Notes under the pieces: model-generated
Seen by the model: only the letters and a program-made list of their open reading frames with translations
What the model was told of the DNA's origin: nothing
Databases searched by the model: none
Assembly: GCF_044647545.1 (NCBI RefSeq)
Contig: NZ_CP172818.1
DNA length: 64,000 nucleotides
Source: Escherichia coli
GTDB taxonomy: Bacteria > Pseudomonadota > Gammaproteobacteria > Enterobacterales > Enterobacteriaceae
Strand: one strand, 5' to 3'
Part shown: piece by piece, positions 1,849-7,791 of the stretch
Position numbering within the stretch: the first letter of the stretch is position 1
Layout: the number at the start of each line of letters is the position of its first letter
Program-made: the position numbers and the translations under genes

Positions 1849-2633
1849 AGCTATCTCCGTAGACCGTAAAACAATCACTCGTTGAGCGTTTTATAGGCGC
1901 AGACTGGTCGAATAATTGTGAGAACGTTCACGTGAAAACGCGCAAAGCTGAACAAATAAAAAATTATGTGAGCCGAGTGGAATAAAAGCGCTCAACGTTT
2001 GTGAAAGTTACGGGCTGGAGAGACCAGTGATTATGGTTGAAATAATGAGGATGAATAAAACGCGGTAACTGTTATAGCACCACTTTGTTGCAGGACGCTC
2101 CCTCTTCATTACGTCCTGCACGTGGATACCCCAGCATCTCCATCAGCGGATCTTAGAATGTAATGGCGCGTGGCAGGTCGTTGGTTCCCAGCATAATGTA
2201 AGAAAACATCGGATCTCCTGAATAGATTCAGAGGGAGTATAGATAATCAGCTCAAATCACTCTCCGCTTTATGAGCCCAGGCTGGCATTGCCGTCAGATA
2301 ACGTTTTGCACGCTTATGTGCTTCCTCCGGGCCGACTTTTTGCCAGGAATCAAGGAAGCTGGCTAAACCTGATACCGCTTCTTCCCAGGGTTTGAGATTG
2401 CCGTTGCTGTCGCTGCATTACGCACAATATTGATCACTGGCACTGTGTGCATCTGGTGCCGACATCGGCATTCCGCAAGCCTGACAGAACTGTTCATGTT
2501 GTGACATATGATGCTCCTTATGGTGACATCTTGATTAATAAACATACTGAATATGTATTGTGCAGGTGATACATCAGATCAAAGCAAAGGTAAAGCCTCG
2601 ATATTTCCAGCCAGAAATACCGGGAACCTGTTG

Positions 2634-3380
2634 TTACCGGGCGATGAGTGCGAACACGCCCCAGCCAAAGCATTCCCGCGCGTAGGTCACGTAGCGTTTC
2701 GGCGCGATGTTTAGTTCGGCCCTGACTTCGGCGGCGAAGTCATCGTCAGGATTCGCTTCCAGCCAGCGGCGCATGGTCAGCCATTTTGCGGCTTCATACC
2801 GGTCCCAGCCTTCCTGGTCTGCCAGTACCATTTCCACCACGTCATAGCCGAGATCGTCGAACGCTCCGACAAGTCCTGGCAGCGTCAGGAAATCGCTTGT
2901 CGAGCTGACGCCGCAGGCCTGGGCTATTTCTTCTGTTGCTGGTAGCTGACGCCAGTAGGGTTCGCCGATAAGCATGATCCCGCCCGGTTTCAGGCTTTGC
3001 GCTAGCAGCTCCTCCGCCCCGGCAAACCCACCGGCAATCCATGTCGCGCCGACGCAGGCCGCCACGTCACATTTTTCATTTGCGACGTAACCGGCCGCAT
3101 CGTTATGAATAAAATGTACGCGTTCGCTGACGCCGAGTTCTTCCGCGCGACGCTTTGCCTGCGCGGTGAAGAGCGAACTCATGTCGATGCCAGTCCCCGT
3201 AATGCCATGATCCCTGGCCCAGGTGCAGAGCATCTCGCCCGAGCCGCTGCCGAGGTCAAGAATGCGGGTGCCCGGCTTCATGCGCAGCACGCGACCCAGC
3301 GTGGCGTACTTCTCTTCGGTGAACGGGTTATGGATGCGGTGTTCACTTTCGCTGATGGTAAAAATACGTGGGATATCCAT
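2634..3380 (-). CDS. yjhP: SAM-dependent methyltransferase (KpLE2 remnant)
   Basis: 248-aa ORF with methyltransferase motif ILDLGSGSGEM; position matches K-12 yjhP. Confidence 0.85.
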   Translation of the reverse strand: MDIPRIFTISESEHRIHNPFTEEKYATLGRVLRMKPGTRILDLGSGSGEMLCTWARDHGITGTGIDMSSLFTAQAKRRAEELGVSERVHFIHNDAAGYVANEKCDVAACVGATWIAGGFAGAEELLAQSLKPGGIMLIGEPYWRQLPATEEIAQACGVSSTSDFLTLPGLVGAFDDLGYDVVEMVLADQEGWDRYEAAKWLTMRRWLEANPDDDFAAEVRAELNIAPKRYVTYARECFGWGVFALIAR

Positions 3381-3435
3381 TATTTAATTCCTGTTATTGG
3401 GTTAAGCCTTAAAAAGGACACAACAAGATTGTTAT

Positions 3436-3981
3436 TCACGTCAGTGCTCCGGTTTCATCAGGGTCTGCGCACCGGATGTGGCCGGTCAGGGTCATGGGCT
3501 GAGCGGTGAGTGATTGCATCATCCAGCAGGCTTTGTGCTCCTCCGGGATGGGATAAGGTGCCGGATAGCCTTTGTCTCCGGCACAGGGTTCGAACCCATG
3601 TCGGGGGTAATAGGTGGCGTGGCCGAGAACAAAAACCGTCTGGCAGCCCATCAACCTCAGGTGCTCGATGCCAGTGCGTATCAACCGTCCTCCCACGCCC
3701 ATCCCTTGGTATTCCGGTATGACCGCCAGGGGAGCGAGGATGTGCATCAACGGTGAATCCATTTCTCCTTTGAAGGTTGCCCGGGTAAATAAAATATGCC
3801 CGACGGCTTTGCCTTCATACCGGGCTAGCAGCGATAACGCGGGGCGCGCGCTTTCATCCTCAAGTAAAGAGGCCACTAAATCGGCTTCTTTGCTGAAGCC
3901 AAATGCGCGGGTTTCGACTTCCCGGATATCACTGGCATCACTTTTATCTGTGATATGAAAAGTGAAGTGGTGTACTGTCAT
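3436..3981 (-). CDS. yjhQ: GNAT-family acetyltransferase, cognate antitoxin partner of TopAI
   Basis: 181-aa ORF, GNAT-like; immediately downstream of yjhX on the same strand. Confidence 0.85.
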   Translation of the reverse strand: MTVHHFTFHITDKSDASDIREVETRAFGFSKEADLVASLLEDESARPALSLLARYEGKAVGHILFTRATFKGEMDSPLMHILAPLAVIPEYQGMGVGGRLIRTGIEHLRLMGCQTVFVLGHATYYPRHGFEPCAGDKGYPAPYPIPEEHKACWMMQSLTAQPMTLTGHIRCADPDETGALT

Positions 3982-3992
3982 AGAAACTCTCC

Positions 3993-4250
3993 TTAGCGAT
4001 TATCGAGCTGAGCGCGAACTTTATTCAGCTCGGTGGTGTTGATTCGATAGGGCTGGCCATTGACGGACTTGATAAGTTTTTTGGTTTTGAGTTTTTTGAA
4101 GACGGCGAGCGTGCAGTCGGTCAGCAACAGCCCTTCGCGGCTGTAGCATTCAACGGAAGTGACGCGGCCTGAAGAATCGCGGACGTGCGCAATACGTCTA
4201 CCTTTAGCGAGAACGTGTAAGGTATGTTGTTCCTGACGGGATAAATTCAT
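3993..4250 (-). CDS. topAI: Topoisomerase I inhibitor toxin TopAI (YjhX)
   Basis: 85-aa [28 protein letters not shown]...; small toxin-sized gene upstream of yjhQ. Confidence 0.8.
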
Positions 4251-4740
4251 ACTGAAGAACCTATTTAATCATCATGTGCAAAACGTGCAAACACACCGCG
4301 GTGTCCGCATTCGATTTCGGCGCATTGATAATCAGTCCGGCCTGAAAAGGTCGGGGAACTGATTATCGGATGATTACATTCTCCAGCATCAAAGCCTCGG
4401 GTTGAGTTGAAAGGTATTTACGGAGCGAATATTAACACGTAGTTATAGGAGGGATATGTTTCAGTAGAAAAAGTGTGATGTACTTTGGAAATTGAATGCC
4501 AACCCATTTACTGGAAAAGGCAGATGACACTGACGAATGCATGTTGAAGTACGCCTGAAATGGCCTCATCGGCTTTTCCCTTCGGGAGATTATTCTCCTT
4601 TTGTTAAATCCAGAACATAAATATGCTCACCCATCTTCGATGCTTGAAAAATTGAAGCCAATCCTGATAAGTAATTTTTTTGAAAGGGTATTTTCCGGAT
4701 TCACACCGGCTTTGATGAGTGAAAAACCGTTCTCTTTTAT

Positions 4741-4959
4741 TCAGTCAATCGTGGCGGTAATTGCTTCAATTGCATATCCCTGGCGAGCATAAGCGGGACT
4801 GATGGTATAGCCGAGCCAAAACACATCGCATTGCTGACGTAAATAGATATCACCAATCAAAACCTGCGTCATTTGTTGACAATGGCCAATTGAATATCGC
4901 GAGCAAGTGTAAGAACTCCCAGCAAGACCCTGTAAATAATTCTGTGTAACTGCCCACGA
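4741..4959 (-). pseudogene. 3' fragment of a GNAT (RimL-like) acetyltransferase gene, no plausible full-length ORF
   Basis: Minus-strand translation ...MTQVLIGDIYLRQQCDVFWLGYTISPAYARQGYAIEAITATID*; closed by an in-frame stop at 4960-4962; below the 60-aa ORF-track cutoff. Confidence 0.35.
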
Positions 4960-5035
4960 TTAAAGGTGGTCGCTCAGGCGGTCACCGTATTCGATAATAA
5001 ATGGGTCTGGAAAAAGTGCAGCATCTGGCAGCGTA

Positions 5036-6228
5036 ATGCAGGTAGCCCAGTTCAACTCTCACTACCAGTATGATCCCAAGTTCGAGCGCGGAATGTATCT
5101 GTATGAGCATCGTCGCTGTTTCAATAACATCATCGACTACTGTAACTCACTTTGCTATCACGGTAAGTTGCAGCCTAAAAGAGGGATGGAAAAAGGACGA
5201 TTTTCCCCGCAATGGGATATTTACATATTGATGGTAGAGGCATGAAGCCAAATGGAGGGAGCCGTCATAACCCTCTTGAAGCTGAAACAATAGCAGCATG
5301 GCTGGTGGCACATAAGGATGATATAGAGCGCCATTACGGGGAACCACTGTACAAAGTTGTTGGTGTTGTGACGCCATTTTCGGCGCAGGTTAATGCTATC
5401 AAAATGTCATTGCGTAAGCTGGAAATTAATGGCAAAGACGAGCAGGGTTTACTGACAGTGGGGACTGTGCACTCCTTGCAGGGGGCGGAAAGGGCGATTG
5501 TTCTCTTTTCTCCTGTCTACTCAAAACATGAAGATGGCAGGTTTCTTGATAGCAACAGCACTATCCTCAATGTTGCTGTCTCACGCGCTAAAGATAGTTT
5601 TCTGGTATTTGGCGATATGGACCTTATCGAGATGCAGCCCGCATTTTCGCCGCGAGGGTTATTGGCAAAATATCTCTTTTCTTCAGATAATAATGCGTTG
5701 CAATTTGAGTTTCAGAAACGACAGGATTTAATTTCCGCACATACACAAATTTCAACGCTGCATGGTGTGGAGCAGCATGATGAATTTTTGAACAAGACTC
5801 TTGCCGGAGCTCAAAAGAAAATAACGATTATTTCCCCTTGGTTATCCTGGCAAAAAGTGGAGCAAACGGGATTTCTGGCATCAATGGCTTTGGCCCGTTC
5901 CCGGGGCATTGATATTACCGTGGTGACGGATAAAAACTGCAATATAGCGCATGTCGATGATGATAAGCGTCAGGAGAAACAACATCTGCTGAATGATGCT
6001 GTTGAAAAGCTCAATAAGATGGGTATCGCTACGAAATTGGTTAATCGTGTTCACAGCAAAATTGTGATTGAGGATGAAGAACTGCTGTGTGTCGGATCTT
6101 TTAACTGGTTCAGTGCTACACGGGAAGATAAGTATCAACGATACGATACGTCTTTGGTGTACCGTGGTGAAGGCGTAAAAAATGAAATAAAGGCAATATA
6201 TGGTAGTCTGGATCAACGTCAGCTTTAA
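5036..6228 (+). pseudogene. yjhR: Frameshifted, 5'-truncated SF1 helicase C-terminal domain fused to a PLD-like (HxK) nuclease domain
   Basis: ORF 5036-5245 (..[11 protein letters not shown]..) continues in another frame as ORF 5212-6228 (..[15 protein letters not shown].., ..[20 protein letters not shown]..); no helicase N-terminal motifs upstream. Confidence 0.7.
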
Positions 6229-6810
6229 ATGTGATGAGCCGTTCATGATACAGGAGTAGTAAAGGGCATATTTTACCAATGTTAAGGCGACTTTCCGTTT
6301 TATTGCGAGTCGCCTTTCCTGATTATAAATCTTATTGTTTACCTAATCATTTTCCTTTGCATAATGCGCCTGGGATTAATGGCGGGTGCTTTTAGGAATG
6401 AAAGAAAATGCAAGCAATAATATAATAATGGCCTAATTTCTTTGAACATCATTAAGCATATCATCATCGTCTATTTGCCAGAATCCGTCGACTTATAATC
6501 GCCAGAACGGCATATCAGGACGGTGCTGCGAACGCTGTGGCCCAAAACGTTCCAGTAAACTGTGTAGATGTTCGTAGATTTCCGAGCCATAATCGAAAAG
6601 GCGCGGATGTCTATTAAGGCATCCGGCTAATCTGTAAGCAATAACAACGGTTTATGCGGTGCGCGTTTTTCACCCTTGTGCCAGATTATTATATTGGCAA
6701 TTGCCTGCTGTTCGAGCCCGCAAGTGAAGAGATATTACCTTGATCTCATTTGTTTTTTGTTGTCTACTCTGAGAACGAACAAGGACATCCCCCATGAATA
6801 AACTCCCCGC

Positions 6811-7791
6811 TCACCTTTCGCGCCAAAACTGCAAAATTGCTTCTACAAACCTGTCAGAAATAATCCCTCGACGGGCTGCCGCGCTGAAATGACTGCTTCG
6901 CAGTGCCGTCGTCCAGTTCTCCGGTGACCGGTACGCTGAACCGTAATATCCCGTGCTTAAATCGTCCGGATCTTCATCAGGCGCGTTCGTCAGTCCTCTT
7001 GCACCTTGTTGCTGGAAGTCGACGAAAATAATATTGGCTAGAACATTATTTTGATAATTGCCATAAATAGCTTCATACGCATGAGGGAAATTTTCTTTCC
7101 AGTACCAGGTGGTATCGCCGCAAAACCACGGCGCGTCAGTAATTTTATTAAGCTGAGAATGGTATTGTTTTAGATCCCTACGAAAGGCGTCAACCATATG
7201 ATTAAAGTGTTGAGGGTGTGACGCGTAGTCACTGGTCATTAAGTCAAATTCGCCTTGCATCCAGCATACGCCGAGGAATTTGTTCTGCGGATTTTTTGCC
7301 AGTGCGGCTCGCGTTCTGCTGACTAAATCCTGGTATAGCGGAGTATCCGTTCCCCAACGACAAGCATCATGGCTGGCTCCGTGCCGTTCTGAATATGTCC
7401 CTTCGCTGCCCGCGGTAAAAGCCGATCCGCCACGGCAACACGGAACGATGAGAACCCCTGCATTATCAGGAATAAAGGGCAGTAATTTCCGTGCTATATG
7501 TAGTGCCTGGCCAACGGTGCCGTACTGTGTTTGATGATTCGTTGCCAGAGGATGGTGATAACCCTGCATATCCTGAACATCGTGTGGGCAGTGAGTCAGT
7601 GGAATAATGTCGTTAAAGTGACATGACGGGCCTCCGGGATGTGTATGCGCAAATCTCGCTAATTGTTTAATTCTGGGATGAGGCGCATCTTCCTTGTCCG
7701 GTAATGGTAGTCCTTCGCCATACGCCATGGCATTAGACTGACCAGCAACGGTAAGAACATAGTAATAATCGGGCGATATTATTGCGTTCAT
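6811..7791 (-). CDS. nanS: 9-O-acetyl-N-acetylneuraminate esterase
   Basis: ORF 6811-7818; ATG at 7789-7791 gives MNAIISPDYYYVLTVAGQSNA... (326 aa). Confidence 0.85.
   Translation of the reverse strand: MNAIISPDYYYVLTVAGQSNAMAYGEGLPLPDKEDAPHPRIKQLARFAHTHPGGPSCHFNDIIPLTHCPHDVQDMQGYHHPLATNHQTQYGTVGQALHIARKLLPFIPDNAGVLIVPCCRGGSAFTAGSEGTYSERHGASHDACRWGTDTPLYQDLVSRTRAALAKNPQNKFLGVCWMQGEFDLMTSDYASHPQHFNHMVDAFRRDLKQYHSQLNKITDAPWFCGDTTWYWKENFPHAYEAIYGNYQNNVLANIIFVDFQQQGARGLTNAPDEDPDDLSTGYYGSAYRSPENWTTALRSSHFSAAARRGIISDRFVEAILQFWRER

What the first reader, a model, noticed from the sequence alone, without database searches (positions are those of the whole stretch)
3436..4250. TopAI-YjhQ toxin-antitoxin module with adjacent methyltransferase yjhP
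A small toxin-sized gene (yjhX/topAI, 85 aa) sits immediately upstream of a GNAT acetyltransferase (yjhQ), followed by the SAM methyltransferase yjhP, inside prophage-remnant DNA. Established knowledge names the first two a topoisomerase I inhibitor and its antitoxin. The role of yjhP and the separate GNAT fragment at 4741-4959 is not explained.
Basis: established knowledge. Interest (0 to 1): 0.3.

Follow-up and report, generated by a model that had tools for sequence, protein, structure and literature searches.

The report
Known antibiotic-sensing topAI-yjhQ-yjhP operon
This is the already characterised E. coli K-12 topAI-yjhQ-yjhP operon, switched on by ribosome-targeting antibiotics through a tiny upstream reading frame. 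Comparison with other bacteria shows the supposed antitoxin YjhQ is an optional passenger, not a fixed partner.

Summary
**Observation: confirmed.** The genes are real and lie at the stated coordinates, all on the minus strand:
- topAI/yjhX: 4250-3993
- yjhQ: 3981-3436
- yjhP: 3380-2634

The DNA is 100% identical to E. coli K-12.

**Already published**
- TopAI inhibits topoisomerase I, and YjhQ counteracts it.
- All three genes form one operon.

- The 171-nt leader carries the 8-codon uORF toiL (4389-4363). toiL gates topAI translation and Rho termination in response to ribosome-targeting antibiotics.

**New here**
- In 80 other species (one genome each), all 79 loci with upstream DNA carry toiL, and topAI is intact in all 80.
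- Intact YjhQ follows topAI in only about 9 of them.
- The usual follower is one of three SAM-methyltransferase families, joined at the same TAAGGAG junction. In 12 loci none of these enzyme genes follows.
- 117 E. coli genomes have topAI but no yjhQ.
- The distant homologues examined are solitary genes, yet they keep a similar uORF and leader hairpin.

**Verdict**
- The conserved unit is uORF + leader + yjhX.
- "Toxin-antitoxin" describes the K-12 overexpression phenotype, not the family.
- The GNAT fragment is an unrelated pseudogene.
- This is a known system of low interest, with one modest new angle.

The parts
4429..4434 (-). -10-like hexamer TAATAT of the topAI promoter
   Evidence: Read from the sequence. 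It lies 7 nt upstream of the transcription start implied by the published 171-nt upstream region. This is inference: the consensus promoter scan did not call a promoter on this strand.
4251..4421 (-). 5' upstream region (leader) of the topAI-yjhQ-yjhP transcript, 171 nt
   Evidence: Length comes from PMC12121999. Folding of 4230-4421 (this leader plus the first 21 nt of topAI) gives MFE -59.3 kcal/mol, z -3.75 against shuffles. No Rfam family matches.
4395..4421 (-). Pyrimidine-rich 5' end of the leader (GUAAAUACCUUUCAACUCAACCC...), the Rho loading site
   Evidence: PMC12121999 reports that mutating four C residues here relieves Rho termination. The CCTTTCAACTCAACCC stretch is conserved in most Enterobacterales leaders. 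The exact extent is not defined.
4363..4389 (-). toiL uORF: ATG CTG GAG AAT GTA ATC ATC CGA TAA = MLENVIIR*
   Evidence: Read from the sequence. It starts 139 nt upstream of the topAI ATG, as published. A toiL-like uORF is present 135-142 nt upstream of topAI in 79 of 79 related loci that have upstream DNA.
4369..4392 (-). 5' arm of the repressive hairpin (covers the toiL start and first codons)
   Evidence: Single-sequence MFE folds. In the consensus fold of 39 species, AUGCUGG pairs with CCAGUAU, with a both-sides change in the Janthinobacterium locus.
4245..4272 (-). 3' arm of the repressive hairpin (covers the topAI Shine-Dalgarno-like AGG at 4262-4260 and the start codon)
   Evidence: Folds. 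The published model is that this pairing occludes the topAI ribosome-binding site.
3993..4250 (-). topAI (yjhX), 85 aa, topoisomerase I inhibitor
   Evidence: - PF09857, E 2.5e-37; RefSeq calls it 'YjhX family toxin'.
- dN/dS about 0.10 against 80 species, and the ORF is intact in all 80.
- Function comes from PMC4666372 and PMC11695965.
3982..3995 (-). Junction TAA-GGAG-N7: topAI stop codon abutted by the Shine-Dalgarno of the next gene
   Evidence: The same TAAGGAG junction, followed after 6-11 nt by the start codon, precedes whichever gene follows topAI in other species: YjhQ, YjhP, MT2 or MT3.
3436..3981 (-). yjhQ, 181 aa GNAT acetyltransferase (published antitoxin of TopAI)
   Evidence: - PF00583, E 4.8e-12. 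Nearest PDB entries are 4ZBG and 4RS2, both uncharacterised.
- Motif A QGxG[VI]G and YYxRxGF are invariant in 10 orthologues.
- dN/dS about 0.09.
- Intact next to topAI in only about 9 of 80 species.
2634..3380 (-). yjhP, 248 aa class I SAM-dependent methyltransferase, third gene of the operon
   Evidence: - Pfam methyltransferase domains. PDB 1NKV is this protein.
- More distant PDB relatives are mostly natural-product and other small-molecule methyltransferases.
- Operonic and tetracycline-induced.
- It is the commonest gene after topAI in other species.
4627..4959 (-). Remnant of a different GNAT (Acetyltransf_3 type). Neighbour only, not part of the operon.
   Evidence: - In-frame TGA at 4743-4741, and the N-terminal third is missing.
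- RefSeq annotates only 4741-4872, as a hypothetical protein.
- The sequence is shared only with two loci whose DNA here is E. coli-like (L002, L033). It is absent upstream of toiL in the other species.

Best explanation
The stretch is the middle of the E. coli K-12 topAI-yjhQ-yjhP operon. Its functional unit runs from the transcription start (about 4421) to the end of yjhP (2634), on the minus strand.

**How it works**
1. [quoted passage not shown]
2. topAI is then not translated, and Rho terminates transcription within its first 10-42 nt. The whole operon stays silent.
3. Ribosome-targeting antibiotics stall ribosomes in toiL and open the hairpin.
4. topAI is translated and Rho is blocked, so the downstream genes are expressed. 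They start a few nucleotides after the topAI stop, at a TAAGGAG junction.
5. TopAI binds the topoisomerase I-DNA complex and blocks relaxation. In K-12, YjhQ binds TopAI and blunts its effect.

Steps 1-3, the Rho part of step 4 and step 5 are published results. The junction in step 4 is shown by sequence here; translational coupling through it is inferred.

**What this analysis adds**
- The conserved unit is uORF + leader hairpin + yjhX. It is found in the Enterobacterales loci, one Janthinobacterium (betaproteobacterium) locus and distant metagenomic homologues whose few named members are alphaproteobacteria.
- YjhQ and three families of SAM methyltransferases (YjhP, MT2, MT3) are interchangeable cargo attached downstream of that unit, restricted to some lineages.

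**Inference**
TopAI is best read as the translation-stress-gated effector of this leader, a modulator of topoisomerase I kept silent by tight attenuation. It is not an addiction-type toxin that needs a dedicated antitoxin. YjhQ is an active-looking acetyltransferase whose neutralising role is a K-12-lineage add-on. YjhP most likely methylates a small molecule.
For: **Identity**
- 100% match to K-12, with gene annotation. Pfam assignments.

**Regulation (literature)**
- toiL, the hairpin, Rho termination, induction by five antibiotic classes, and operonic co-induction of yjhQ and yjhP.

**Regulation (checked here)**
- toiL sits at -139.
- The leader fold has z -3.75 and pairs toiL with the topAI initiation region.
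- The consensus fold of 39 species keeps that helix, with a compensatory change.

**Comparative evidence**
- toiL is present in 79 of 79 loci, and topAI is intact in 80 of 80.
- Genes found downstream of topAI in the 80 loci:

| Downstream genes | Loci |
|---|---|
| YjhP alone | 28 |
| none of these | 12 |
| MT3 | 11 |
| MT2-YjhP | 7 |
| MT3-MT2 | 3 |
| any arrangement with intact YjhQ | 9 |
| fragmentary, contig-truncated or rarer arrangements | 10 |

- A profile-HMM search finds YjhQ-family sequence in only 14 of 93 loci. Four of these are decayed fragments beside an intact topAI.
- The same TAAGGAG junction precedes all four cargo types.
- E. coli pan-genome: toiL-topAI is in 1772 genomes and yjhQ in 1655, even at blastn sensitivity.
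- A second E. coli locus has toiL, a topAI variant and a truncated methyltransferase, with no GNAT.
- Nine distant yjhX loci on contigs long enough to show neighbours have no adjacent partner gene.
- Eleven of 12 distinct loci outside Enterobacterales keep an M-x-E-I-A-x-R-type uORF 115-157 nt upstream, against 0.03 expected by shuffling. The twelfth has the related MPGIVAR.
- Four of the five such leaders folded show a uORF-to-start-site hairpin, z -2.6 to -5.6.

**Selection and mobility**
- All three genes are under purifying selection, dN/dS about 0.1.
- The genomic context upstream is highly variable: 73 loci fall into 53 neighbour clusters.

**Target**
- TopA as the target is independently supported by co-IP and BiFC in PMC11695965.
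Against: - Published experiments do show TopAI toxicity, rescue by YjhQ and a TopAI-YjhQ pull-down. YjhQ co-expression also lowered mortality in another study. In K-12 the pair therefore behaves operationally like a toxin and antitoxin.
- The 80 loci are the best-scoring matches, one genome per species, with only ±6 kb of sequence. A neutraliser encoded elsewhere in those genomes cannot be excluded, except at DNA level in E. coli.
- The methyltransferases might themselves neutralise TopAI. This was not tested.
- The distant sample is small: about 11 distinct loci, mostly metagenomic.
- Some yjhQ 'fragments' (L033, L039) could be assembly frameshifts.
- No substrate is known for YjhQ or YjhP.
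Confidence: 0.7

Rival explanations
1. Canonical type II toxin-antitoxin module. TopAI is a growth-arresting toxin and YjhQ its dedicated protein antitoxin. The pair serves stress-induced dormancy or persistence, or stabilises the island. yjhP is a passenger.
For: - Overexpression toxicity, rescue by YjhQ and a pull-down.
- Pfam and RefSeq name the family 'YjhX toxin'.
- The genes are adjacent and co-transcribed with an 11-nt spacer.
- YjhQ co-expression lowers mortality.
Against: - YjhQ is intact beside topAI in only about 9 of 80 species, and decayed beside an intact topAI in 4.
- 117 E. coli genomes have topAI without yjhQ.
- Distant family members are solitary.
- YjhQ has no DNA-binding domain, and neither YjhQ nor the TopAI-YjhQ complex bound the promoter palindromes.
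- YjhQ keeps its catalytic GNAT motifs under purifying selection, which a mere binding partner would not need.
- Control of the operon is by uORF and Rho attenuation, not by antitoxin autoregulation or proteolysis.
- No PADLOC hit for TopAI or YjhQ.
Confidence: 0.2
2. Cryptic drug- or xenobiotic-modifying operon. The enzymes downstream of topAI (GNAT YjhQ; methyltransferases YjhP, MT2, MT3) modify the small molecule that toiL evolved to sense, as with leader-peptide-controlled erm and cat genes. TopAI's toxicity would be secondary or an overexpression artefact.
For: - Almost all known antibiotic-sensing uORFs control resistance genes, and the eLife authors speculate about such a link.
- The cargo is always a group-transfer enzyme and is swapped at a fixed junction.
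- The nearest solved relatives of YjhP, MT2 and MT3 are mostly small-molecule and natural-product methyltransferases, with a few tRNA, RNA or ribosomal-protein methyltransferases among the weak hits.
- YjhQ keeps its catalytic motifs.
Against: - No substrate or resistance phenotype is reported.
- 12 of 80 close loci, and all distant loci, have yjhX with no enzyme at all, yet keep the uORF and leader. The regulated output common to the family is therefore YjhX itself.
- TopAI is under strong purifying selection, and TopA binding has been confirmed independently.
Confidence: 0.2
3. Abortive-infection-type phage defence. Phage-induced translation shut-off stalls ribosomes on toiL, releasing TopAI to poison topoisomerase I and stop the infected cell. 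The module sits in a defence-rich island.
For: - It lies in an accessory island next to the remnant of a Mokosh type II defence gene (yjhR matches the MkoC C-terminus, E 3.8e-139) and a restriction-endonuclease fragment.
- It is carried by only a third of E. coli genomes.
Against: - No PADLOC model matches TopAI or YjhQ.
- No phage family matches TopAI.
- Related loci sit in many unrelated, mostly housekeeping contexts.
- There is no experimental hint.
Confidence: 0.05
4. topAI is merely a long regulatory reading frame whose translation controls Rho access. The encoded protein is irrelevant.
For: - Rho termination inside topAI depends on its translation.
- Downstream genes start right at its stop codon.
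Against: - dN/dS is 0.10 over 80 species and the ORF is intact in 80 of 80.
- It belongs to a Pfam family found in several proteobacterial lineages, including solitary genes.
- The fold prediction is confident.
- Biochemical TopA binding is published.
Confidence: 0.02

Closest known systems
TopAI-YjhQ of E. coli K-12 (Yamaguchi & Inouye 2015, PMC4666372)
   Same: It is this very locus, with identical sequence. The toxin gene comes first and the GNAT second. TopAI targets topoisomerase I.
   Different: Nothing differs in sequence. The comparative data here show the pairing is confined to a minority of lineages, so the toxin-antitoxin label does not describe the YjhX family as a whole.
toiL-controlled attenuation of topAI (Baniulyte & Wade 2025, PMC12121999)
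   Same: The same uORF, the same leader hairpin and the same Rho-dependent termination. My folds and alignment reproduce the toiL-to-RBS pairing.
   Different: The paper reports ToiL conservation among bacteria with the topAI-yjhQP operon. Here a related uORF and hairpin are also seen upstream of solitary yjhX genes in distant (about 50% identical) homologues, and upstream of loci whose cargo is not yjhQP.
Leader-peptide-controlled resistance genes (ermCL-ermC, cat/cmlA leaders)
   Same: A short uORF stalls ribosomes in the presence of an antibiotic and frees the ribosome-binding site of the next gene. The downstream genes include methyltransferases and an acetyltransferase.
   Different: The first regulated gene is a topoisomerase I inhibitor, not a resistance enzyme. 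Several drug classes are sensed. Rho termination adds a transcriptional layer. The methyltransferases resemble small-molecule enzymes, not Erm rRNA methylases, and no resistance phenotype is known.
whiB7 uORF-regulator circuit of actinobacteria
   Same: A uORF that responds to many ribosome-targeting drugs controls a small protein. The associated genes include a methyltransferase (erm) and a GNAT (eis). TopAI's predicted fold is winged-helix-like. The comparison with whiB7 is drawn in PMC12121999.
   Different: WhiB7 is an Fe-S transcription activator that binds sigma factor. TopAI binds topoisomerase I and reportedly does not bind DNA. The enzymes here are in cis, in the same operon. The analogy is functional only. 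The details of the whiB7 regulon come from my own knowledge and were not checked here.
GNAT/RHH toxin-antitoxin systems (TacAT, AtaRT, KacAT)
   Same: A GNAT acetyltransferase is paired with a small protein in a two-gene module called a toxin-antitoxin system.
   Different: The roles are reversed: in those systems the GNAT is the toxin (it acetylates aminoacyl-tRNA) and the small RHH protein is a DNA-binding antitoxin encoded first. Here the small protein is the toxin and comes first, and nothing resembles an RHH domain. The description of those systems is from my own knowledge.

Membership tests
YjhX/TopAI family (Pfam PF09857, NCBIfam NF010240) | Full-length match to the family profile above the curated cut-off | tested here: met
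   PF09857: 127.2 bits against a cut-off of 27, residues 1-85 of 85. NF010240: 148.6 bits against a cut-off of 99.
Type II toxin-antitoxin system | Two adjacent, co-transcribed genes | tested here: met
   11-nt spacer containing GGAG. The literature describes the genes as operonic.
Type II toxin-antitoxin system | Toxin arrests growth; antitoxin neutralises it by direct protein binding | not testable with these tools
   Reported from overexpression and a pull-down with PrS-tagged fusions. Partly echoed in PMC11695965.
Type II toxin-antitoxin system | Antitoxin carries a DNA-binding domain and autoregulates the operon | tested here: not met
   YjhQ consists only of a GNAT domain. The literature found no binding of YjhQ or the complex to the promoter palindromes. 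Control is by toiL and Rho.
Type II toxin-antitoxin system | Toxin and antitoxin genes are co-inherited as a pair across genomes | tested here: not met
   - Intact YjhQ next to topAI in about 9 of 80 species, and fragments in 4.
- 117 E. coli genomes have topAI without yjhQ.
- None of about 11 distinct distant loci has a GNAT partner.
Type II toxin-antitoxin system | Antitoxin is proteolytically labile relative to the toxin | not tested
   No data found in the papers read, and not computable.
Antibiotic-sensing uORF attenuator (toiL type) | Short uORF in the leader, at a conserved distance from the regulated start codon | tested here: met
   MLENVIIR* at 4389-4363, 139 nt upstream. Present in 79 of 79 related loci at 135-142 nt. 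Related uORFs occur in 11 of 12 distinct loci outside Enterobacterales.
Antibiotic-sensing uORF attenuator (toiL type) | uORF sequence base-pairs with the ribosome-binding site of the downstream gene | tested here: met
   MFE folds with z -3.75 and -4.48. Consensus fold of 39 species, with one compensatory pair. Covariation is limited because the helix is highly conserved.
Antibiotic-sensing uORF attenuator (toiL type) | Ribosome stalling in the uORF induces the downstream gene; Rho terminates when it is untranslated | not testable with these tools
   Shown experimentally in PMC12121999.
GNAT acetyltransferase (YjhQ) | Acetyl-CoA-binding motif A (Q/R-x-x-G-x-G/A) and conserved motif B tyrosine region | tested here: met
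   QGMGVG and YYPRHGF are invariant across 10 orthologues, including a 30%-identical Janthinobacterium GNAT. Catalytic activity itself was not tested.
GNAT/RHH toxin-antitoxin (TacAT-like) | GNAT is the toxin, and the partner is a small RHH DNA-binding antitoxin encoded upstream | tested here: not met
   - The upstream partner TopAI is PF09857, with no RHH hit.
- It is predicted to have a winged-helix-like fold.
- The published roles are the reverse.
Known anti-phage defence systems (PADLOC-DB) | Match of the component proteins to a defence-system model | tested here: not met
   No hit for TopAI or YjhQ. YjhP gives only a generic methyltransferase-domain match to mad2.

The most novel reading that the evidence does not exclude
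The YjhX/TopAI family is not a toxin-antitoxin toxin. It is the conserved output of a translation-stress sensor found in several classes of proteobacteria: an M-x-E-I-A-x-R-type uORF plus a leader hairpin. The small winged-helix-like protein reprogrammes topoisomerase I, and hence supercoiling and transcription, when ribosomes stall. In Enterobacterales this unit has become a docking site (the TAAGGAG junction) for swappable acetyl- and methyltransferases. These enzymes act on the sensed small molecule or on TopAI itself.
Probability: 0.4. Interest if true: 0.55.

Novelty: already known. Interest (0 to 1): 0.25.

Why it matters
The locus itself is textbook K-12 and adds nothing new.

What could matter is the correction of a database label. 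'YjhX family toxin' and 'TopAI-YjhQ TA system' are propagated through annotation. Yet the supposed antitoxin is missing from most genomes that carry an intact, well-conserved topAI.

If the conserved unit really is uORF + leader + yjhX, the family is an example of a translation-stress sensor wired to DNA topology. The variable enzymes behind it would then be candidates for unrecognised drug- or metabolite-modifying activities that antibiotics induce.

Tried and rejected
- **The search for related loci with the 33-sequence alignment A1** failed because the alignment was too divergent. A 13-sequence alignment worked, but its best 80 loci were nearly all Enterobacterales.
- **Context look-ups for three distant representatives** (P0129, P0138, P0153) gave only short contigs of 0.75-3 kb, with little context. 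I switched to homologues on long contigs.
- **PDB sequence search for TopAI** found nothing meaningful.
- **Rfam** has no family for the leader.
- **The consensus promoter and terminator scan** did not recover the published promoter on the minus strand, nor a terminator after yjhP.
- **PADLOC and PHROGs** gave no support for a defence or phage origin of TopAI and YjhQ.
- **A tblastn of the GNAT remnant** was first run in the wrong frame and then corrected. It still showed that the region is shared only with two loci whose DNA here is E. coli-like.
- **Modelling a TopAI-YjhQ complex** was considered and dropped. The structure tool returns no coordinates or interface scores.
- **'topAI is only a regulatory ORF'** was rejected on dN/dS and family conservation.
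- **'YjhP is an rRNA methylase of the Erm type'** was rejected as unsupported by the nearest structural relatives.
- **The Christensen 2018 lysine-acetyltransferase screen** included YjhQ. The text retrieved shows only strain lists, so it was not used as evidence.
Full report
**1. What is there**

The window region is 100% identical to E. coli K-12 MG1655 and many other E. coli genomes. The RefSeq annotation of that stretch reads sgcX, two pseudogene fragments, yjhP, yjhQ, topAI, a small hypothetical ORF, the yjhR pseudogene, a restriction-endonuclease fragment, ythB, a fragment annotated sialate O-acetylesterase, nanM and nanC.

The genes of the finding are all on the minus strand:

| Gene | Window coordinates | Length | Best family match |
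|---|---|---|---|
| topAI/yjhX | 4250-3993 | 85 aa | PF09857 YjhX_toxin, E 2.5e-37 |
| yjhQ | 3981-3436 | 181 aa | GNAT PF00583, E 4.8e-12 |
| yjhP | 3380-2634 | 248 aa | class I SAM-methyltransferase domains |

PDB 1NKV is YjhP itself. The topAI stop and yjhQ start are 11 nt apart (TAAGGAGAGTTTCTATG). yjhQ and yjhP are 55 nt apart.

**2. What is already known**

- *TopAI and YjhQ.* Yamaguchi & Inouye (PMC4666372) showed the following:
  - TopAI overexpressed from a T7 promoter stops growth.
  - Co-induced YjhQ rescues growth, and tagged TopAI pulls down tagged YjhQ.
  - TopAI binds the TopA-DNA complex and inhibits topoisomerase I, but not topoisomerases III or IV.
  - Neither YjhQ nor the complex bound the promoter palindromes.
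- *Independent support.* A 2025 study confirmed TopAI-TopoI binding by co-IP and BiFC. It found that YjhQ co-expression lowers mortality but does not restore doubling time (PMC11695965).
- *Regulation.* Baniulyte & Wade (PMC12121999) showed the following:
  - topAI, yjhQ and yjhP are operonic.
  - The 171-nt upstream region contains an 8-codon uORF, toiL, 139 nt upstream of topAI.
  - Untranslated topAI is terminated by Rho between nucleotides 10 and 42.
  - All three genes are among those most strongly induced by tetracycline.

**3. Locating and checking the leader in the window**

- Reading the minus strand, toiL is ATG CTG GAG AAT GTA ATC ATC CGA TAA at 4389-4363. This is exactly 139 nt upstream of the topAI ATG at 4250.
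- The published 171-nt leader puts the transcription start at about 4421, 7 nt downstream of a TAATAT hexamer (4434-4429).
- The leader folds more stably than shuffles (-59.3 kcal/mol, z -3.75). The toiL codons pair with the stretch that holds the topAI Shine-Dalgarno and start codon.
- No Rfam family covers it.

**4. Comparative genomics: close relatives**

A scan of one genome per species (100,044 species) found 587 places encoding a YjhX relative. The best 80 loci are nearly all Enterobacterales, plus one Janthinobacterium.

- topAI is an intact 80-90-codon ORF in 80 of 80 loci. Median identity to E. coli is 91% and dN/dS is 0.10.
- A toiL-like uORF (MLENVIIR, MLENVII, MLENVFIR and similar) lies 135-142 nt upstream in 79 of 79 loci that have upstream DNA.
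- A consensus fold of 39 leaders keeps the toiL-start / topAI-start helix. The Janthinobacterium sequence shows a both-sides change.

What follows topAI on the same strand varies:

| Genes after topAI | Loci (of 80) |
|---|---|
| YjhP alone | 28 |
| none of these families | 12 |
| MT3 (a 236-aa class I methyltransferase) | 11 |
| MT2 (about 290 aa, another class I methyltransferase) then YjhP | 7 |
| MT3-MT2 | 3 |
| any arrangement with an intact YjhQ | 9 |
| fragmentary, contig-truncated or rarer arrangements | 10 |

- Pfam confirms MT2 and MT3 as methyltransferases.
- A profile HMM built from YjhQ orthologues was searched against all reading frames of 93 loci. It finds YjhQ-family sequence in only 14:
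  - 9 are intact.
  - 1 is cut by a contig end.
  - 4 are decayed fragments beside an intact topAI. Two of these (Serratia rubidaea L036, Yersinia vastinensis L072) are short remnants rather than simple frameshifts.
- Whatever gene comes next starts 6-11 nt after the topAI stop, behind the same TAAGGAG. The cargo is exchanged at a fixed junction and is probably translationally coupled to topAI. The coupling is inferred.
- The gene upstream of the leader differs widely: 73 loci fall into 53 clusters. The cassette therefore sits in many genomic contexts.

**5. Within E. coli**

- toiL-topAI is found in 1772 of 5426 complete genomes, at 1917 places.
- yjhQ is found in 1655 genomes, always as a single copy. 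The count is unchanged with the more sensitive blastn mode.
- About 108 genomes carry only an 82%-identical variant next to the lsr operon. There toiL (MLENVIIR) precedes a GTG-initiated topAI, followed by an MT2-type methyltransferase cut by IS21. No GNAT is present.

**6. Distant relatives**

HMMER against 1.84 billion cluster representatives finds only 201 clusters. This is a small family. Homologues about 50% identical were examined on long contigs. The few that carry organism names are alphaproteobacteria (Sphingomonas, Hyphomonadaceae).

- In each of the nine distinct contexts on long contigs, yjhX stands alone. The next gene is convergent or unrelated (thiC, an SNase-domain gene, a hydrolase). 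No GNAT is present.
- Eleven of 12 distinct loci outside Enterobacterales have a 3-8-codon uORF 115-157 nt upstream with a shared core. Examples are MPEIAAR, MKEIATR, MQEIATR, MQEIAIR, MTEIAAR, MTTEIA, MPSEIA, MEIL and MEF. The twelfth has MPGIVAR.
- Shuffling predicts 0.03 such loci. The pattern was defined after seeing the data, but the excess is very large.
- In four of the five such leaders folded, the minimum-energy structure closes the uORF onto the sequence just before the yjhX start (z -2.6 to -5.6). The fifth (L088) is weaker.
- Many of these genes start with GTG or TTG.

The unit common to the whole family is therefore uORF + hairpin + yjhX.

**7. The proteins**

- *YjhQ.* Orthologues keep the acetyl-CoA motif QGxG[VI]G and YYxRxGF invariant, and show dN/dS of 0.09. 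It looks like a working enzyme rather than a mere binding partner. Its nearest solved relatives are uncharacterised.
- *YjhP, MT2 and MT3.* Their nearest solved relatives are mostly small-molecule and natural-product methyltransferases (MitM, MppJ, UbiG-like, phosphoethanolamine N-methyltransferases) rather than Erm-type rRNA methylases. A few tRNA, RNA or ribosomal-protein methyltransferases appear among the weak hits.
- *Defence or phage origin.* Neither PADLOC nor PHROGs links TopAI or YjhQ to defence systems or phages.

**8. Interpretation**

The regulatory mechanism and the TopA target are published, and I take them as shown. The sequence features behind the regulation are all present and conserved.

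My inference is that TopAI is the stress-gated effector of the leader. Silence through attenuation, not a dedicated antitoxin, is what normally keeps it harmless. YjhQ and the methyltransferases are optional cargo.

The K-12 toxin-antitoxin phenotype is real but lineage-specific. Two defining features of type II TA systems are not met:
- an autoregulating, DNA-binding antitoxin;
- co-inheritance of the pair.

The main rival readings are as follows:
- *A bona fide TA module.* It cannot be excluded for K-12 itself.
- *A cryptic drug-modifying operon.* It fits the cargo but not the solitary yjhX genes.
- *A defence role.* It has only weak contextual support.
- *A 'regulatory ORF only' reading.* It is refuted by protein-level conservation.

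**9. The GNAT fragment**

- The frame is open from 4959 to 4744. It is interrupted by TGA at 4743-4741 and continues to a stop at 4629-4627.
- Joined, it matches Acetyltransf_3 positions 52-138 of 138, E 4.4e-11. It is therefore a 5'-truncated pseudogene from a different GNAT subfamily than YjhQ.
- It lies upstream of the topAI promoter. Among the 80 loci it is found only in two whose DNA here is E. coli-like.
- It is island debris, like the neighbouring yjhR remnant, and is not part of the module.

**10. Limits**

- The close sample is the 80 best matches with ±6 kb each.
- The distant sample is about 11 distinct, mostly metagenomic loci.
- Neutralisers encoded elsewhere could be tested only at DNA level, and only in E. 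coli.
- No biochemical step was testable here.

**11. Verdict**

The finding is a correctly located, already characterised system. It rates as already known and of low interest. The one modest new angle is that the toxin-antitoxin label does not hold across the family, whereas the uORF-gated yjhX unit does.

Noticed in passing
window 5212-6228 (+); RefSeq pseudogene yjhR = window 4988-6228: The YjhR fragment matches the C-terminal 325 residues (812-1135 of 1136) of the PADLOC MkoC model, E 3.8e-139. MkoC is the Mokosh type II anti-phage defence protein. yjhR is therefore the 3' remnant of a Mokosh defence gene that has lost about 800 N-terminal codons.
   Followed up: partly
window 3436-3465 (-), 3' end of yjhQ: The last 9 residues of E. 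coli YjhQ (DPDETGALT) differ from the tail of all other orthologues, which end ...ALMKPEHWRE. Reading the E. coli DNA in another frame gives TLMKPEH*. K-12-type yjhQ therefore carries a terminal frameshift plus a TGG-to-TGA change relative to Klebsiella, Hafnia, Citrobacter, Providencia and Serratia.
   Followed up: partly
L095 3200-3950 (E. coli WCHEC005215, next to the lsr operon): This is a second E. coli locus. toiL (MLENVIIR) precedes an 82%-identical topAI that starts with GTG. An MT2-type methyltransferase follows, truncated by IS21, and there is no GNAT. About 108 complete E. coli genomes carry only this variant, and some carry both loci.
   Followed up: partly
window 3993-4250 versus 2634-3981: Synonymous divergence from E. 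coli is much lower in topAI (median dS 0.55, n=80) than in yjhQ (1.36, n=8) or yjhP (1.46, n=43). This may reflect different species sets, nucleotide-level constraint in topAI (Rho or RNA structure), or more recent spread of the toiL-topAI core. It was not resolved.
   Followed up: no
window 2400-4000 versus 4400-6600: The composition is mosaic. yjhP-yjhQ have 54-58% G+C, while the leader, GNAT-remnant and yjhR region has 40-46%. This fits an island assembled from pieces of different origin.
   Followed up: no
window 6496-6701 (-) and 6794-6892 (+): RefSeq annotates a frameshifted restriction-endonuclease fragment and the small protein YthB between yjhR and nanS (coordinates converted from L001). 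Together with the Mokosh remnant, this suggests a decayed defence islet.
   Followed up: no
window 2093-2465 (-): Downstream of yjhP lie a VOC-family protein fragment and a hypothetical ORF with an internal stop. A VOC-family fragment also lies beside the variant topAI locus in L095, on its upstream side. This hints at a shared ancestral neighbourhood.
   Followed up: no
L002 (contig labelled 'MAG: Collinsella sp.'): A 3.2-kb contig binned as Collinsella (Actinomycetota) carries a topAI-yjhQ locus, GNAT remnant and yjhR-like sequence 92-97% identical at protein level to E. coli. This is most likely binning contamination.
   Followed up: no
L053, L066, L034, L074 (downstream of topAI): In several species MT2 and YjhP appear as one continuous reading frame of about 545-553 codons. 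They may be a fused double methyltransferase, or a very short or absent intergenic gap. This was not examined further.
   Followed up: no
L096 3504-3623 (E. coli plasmid pOHT76-1_1): A 373-kb plasmid carries a 3'-truncated topAI with its leader, flanked by IS100 and IS66 elements, fecIR and a yjhR fragment. Part of this island has therefore been mobilised onto a plasmid.
   Followed up: no
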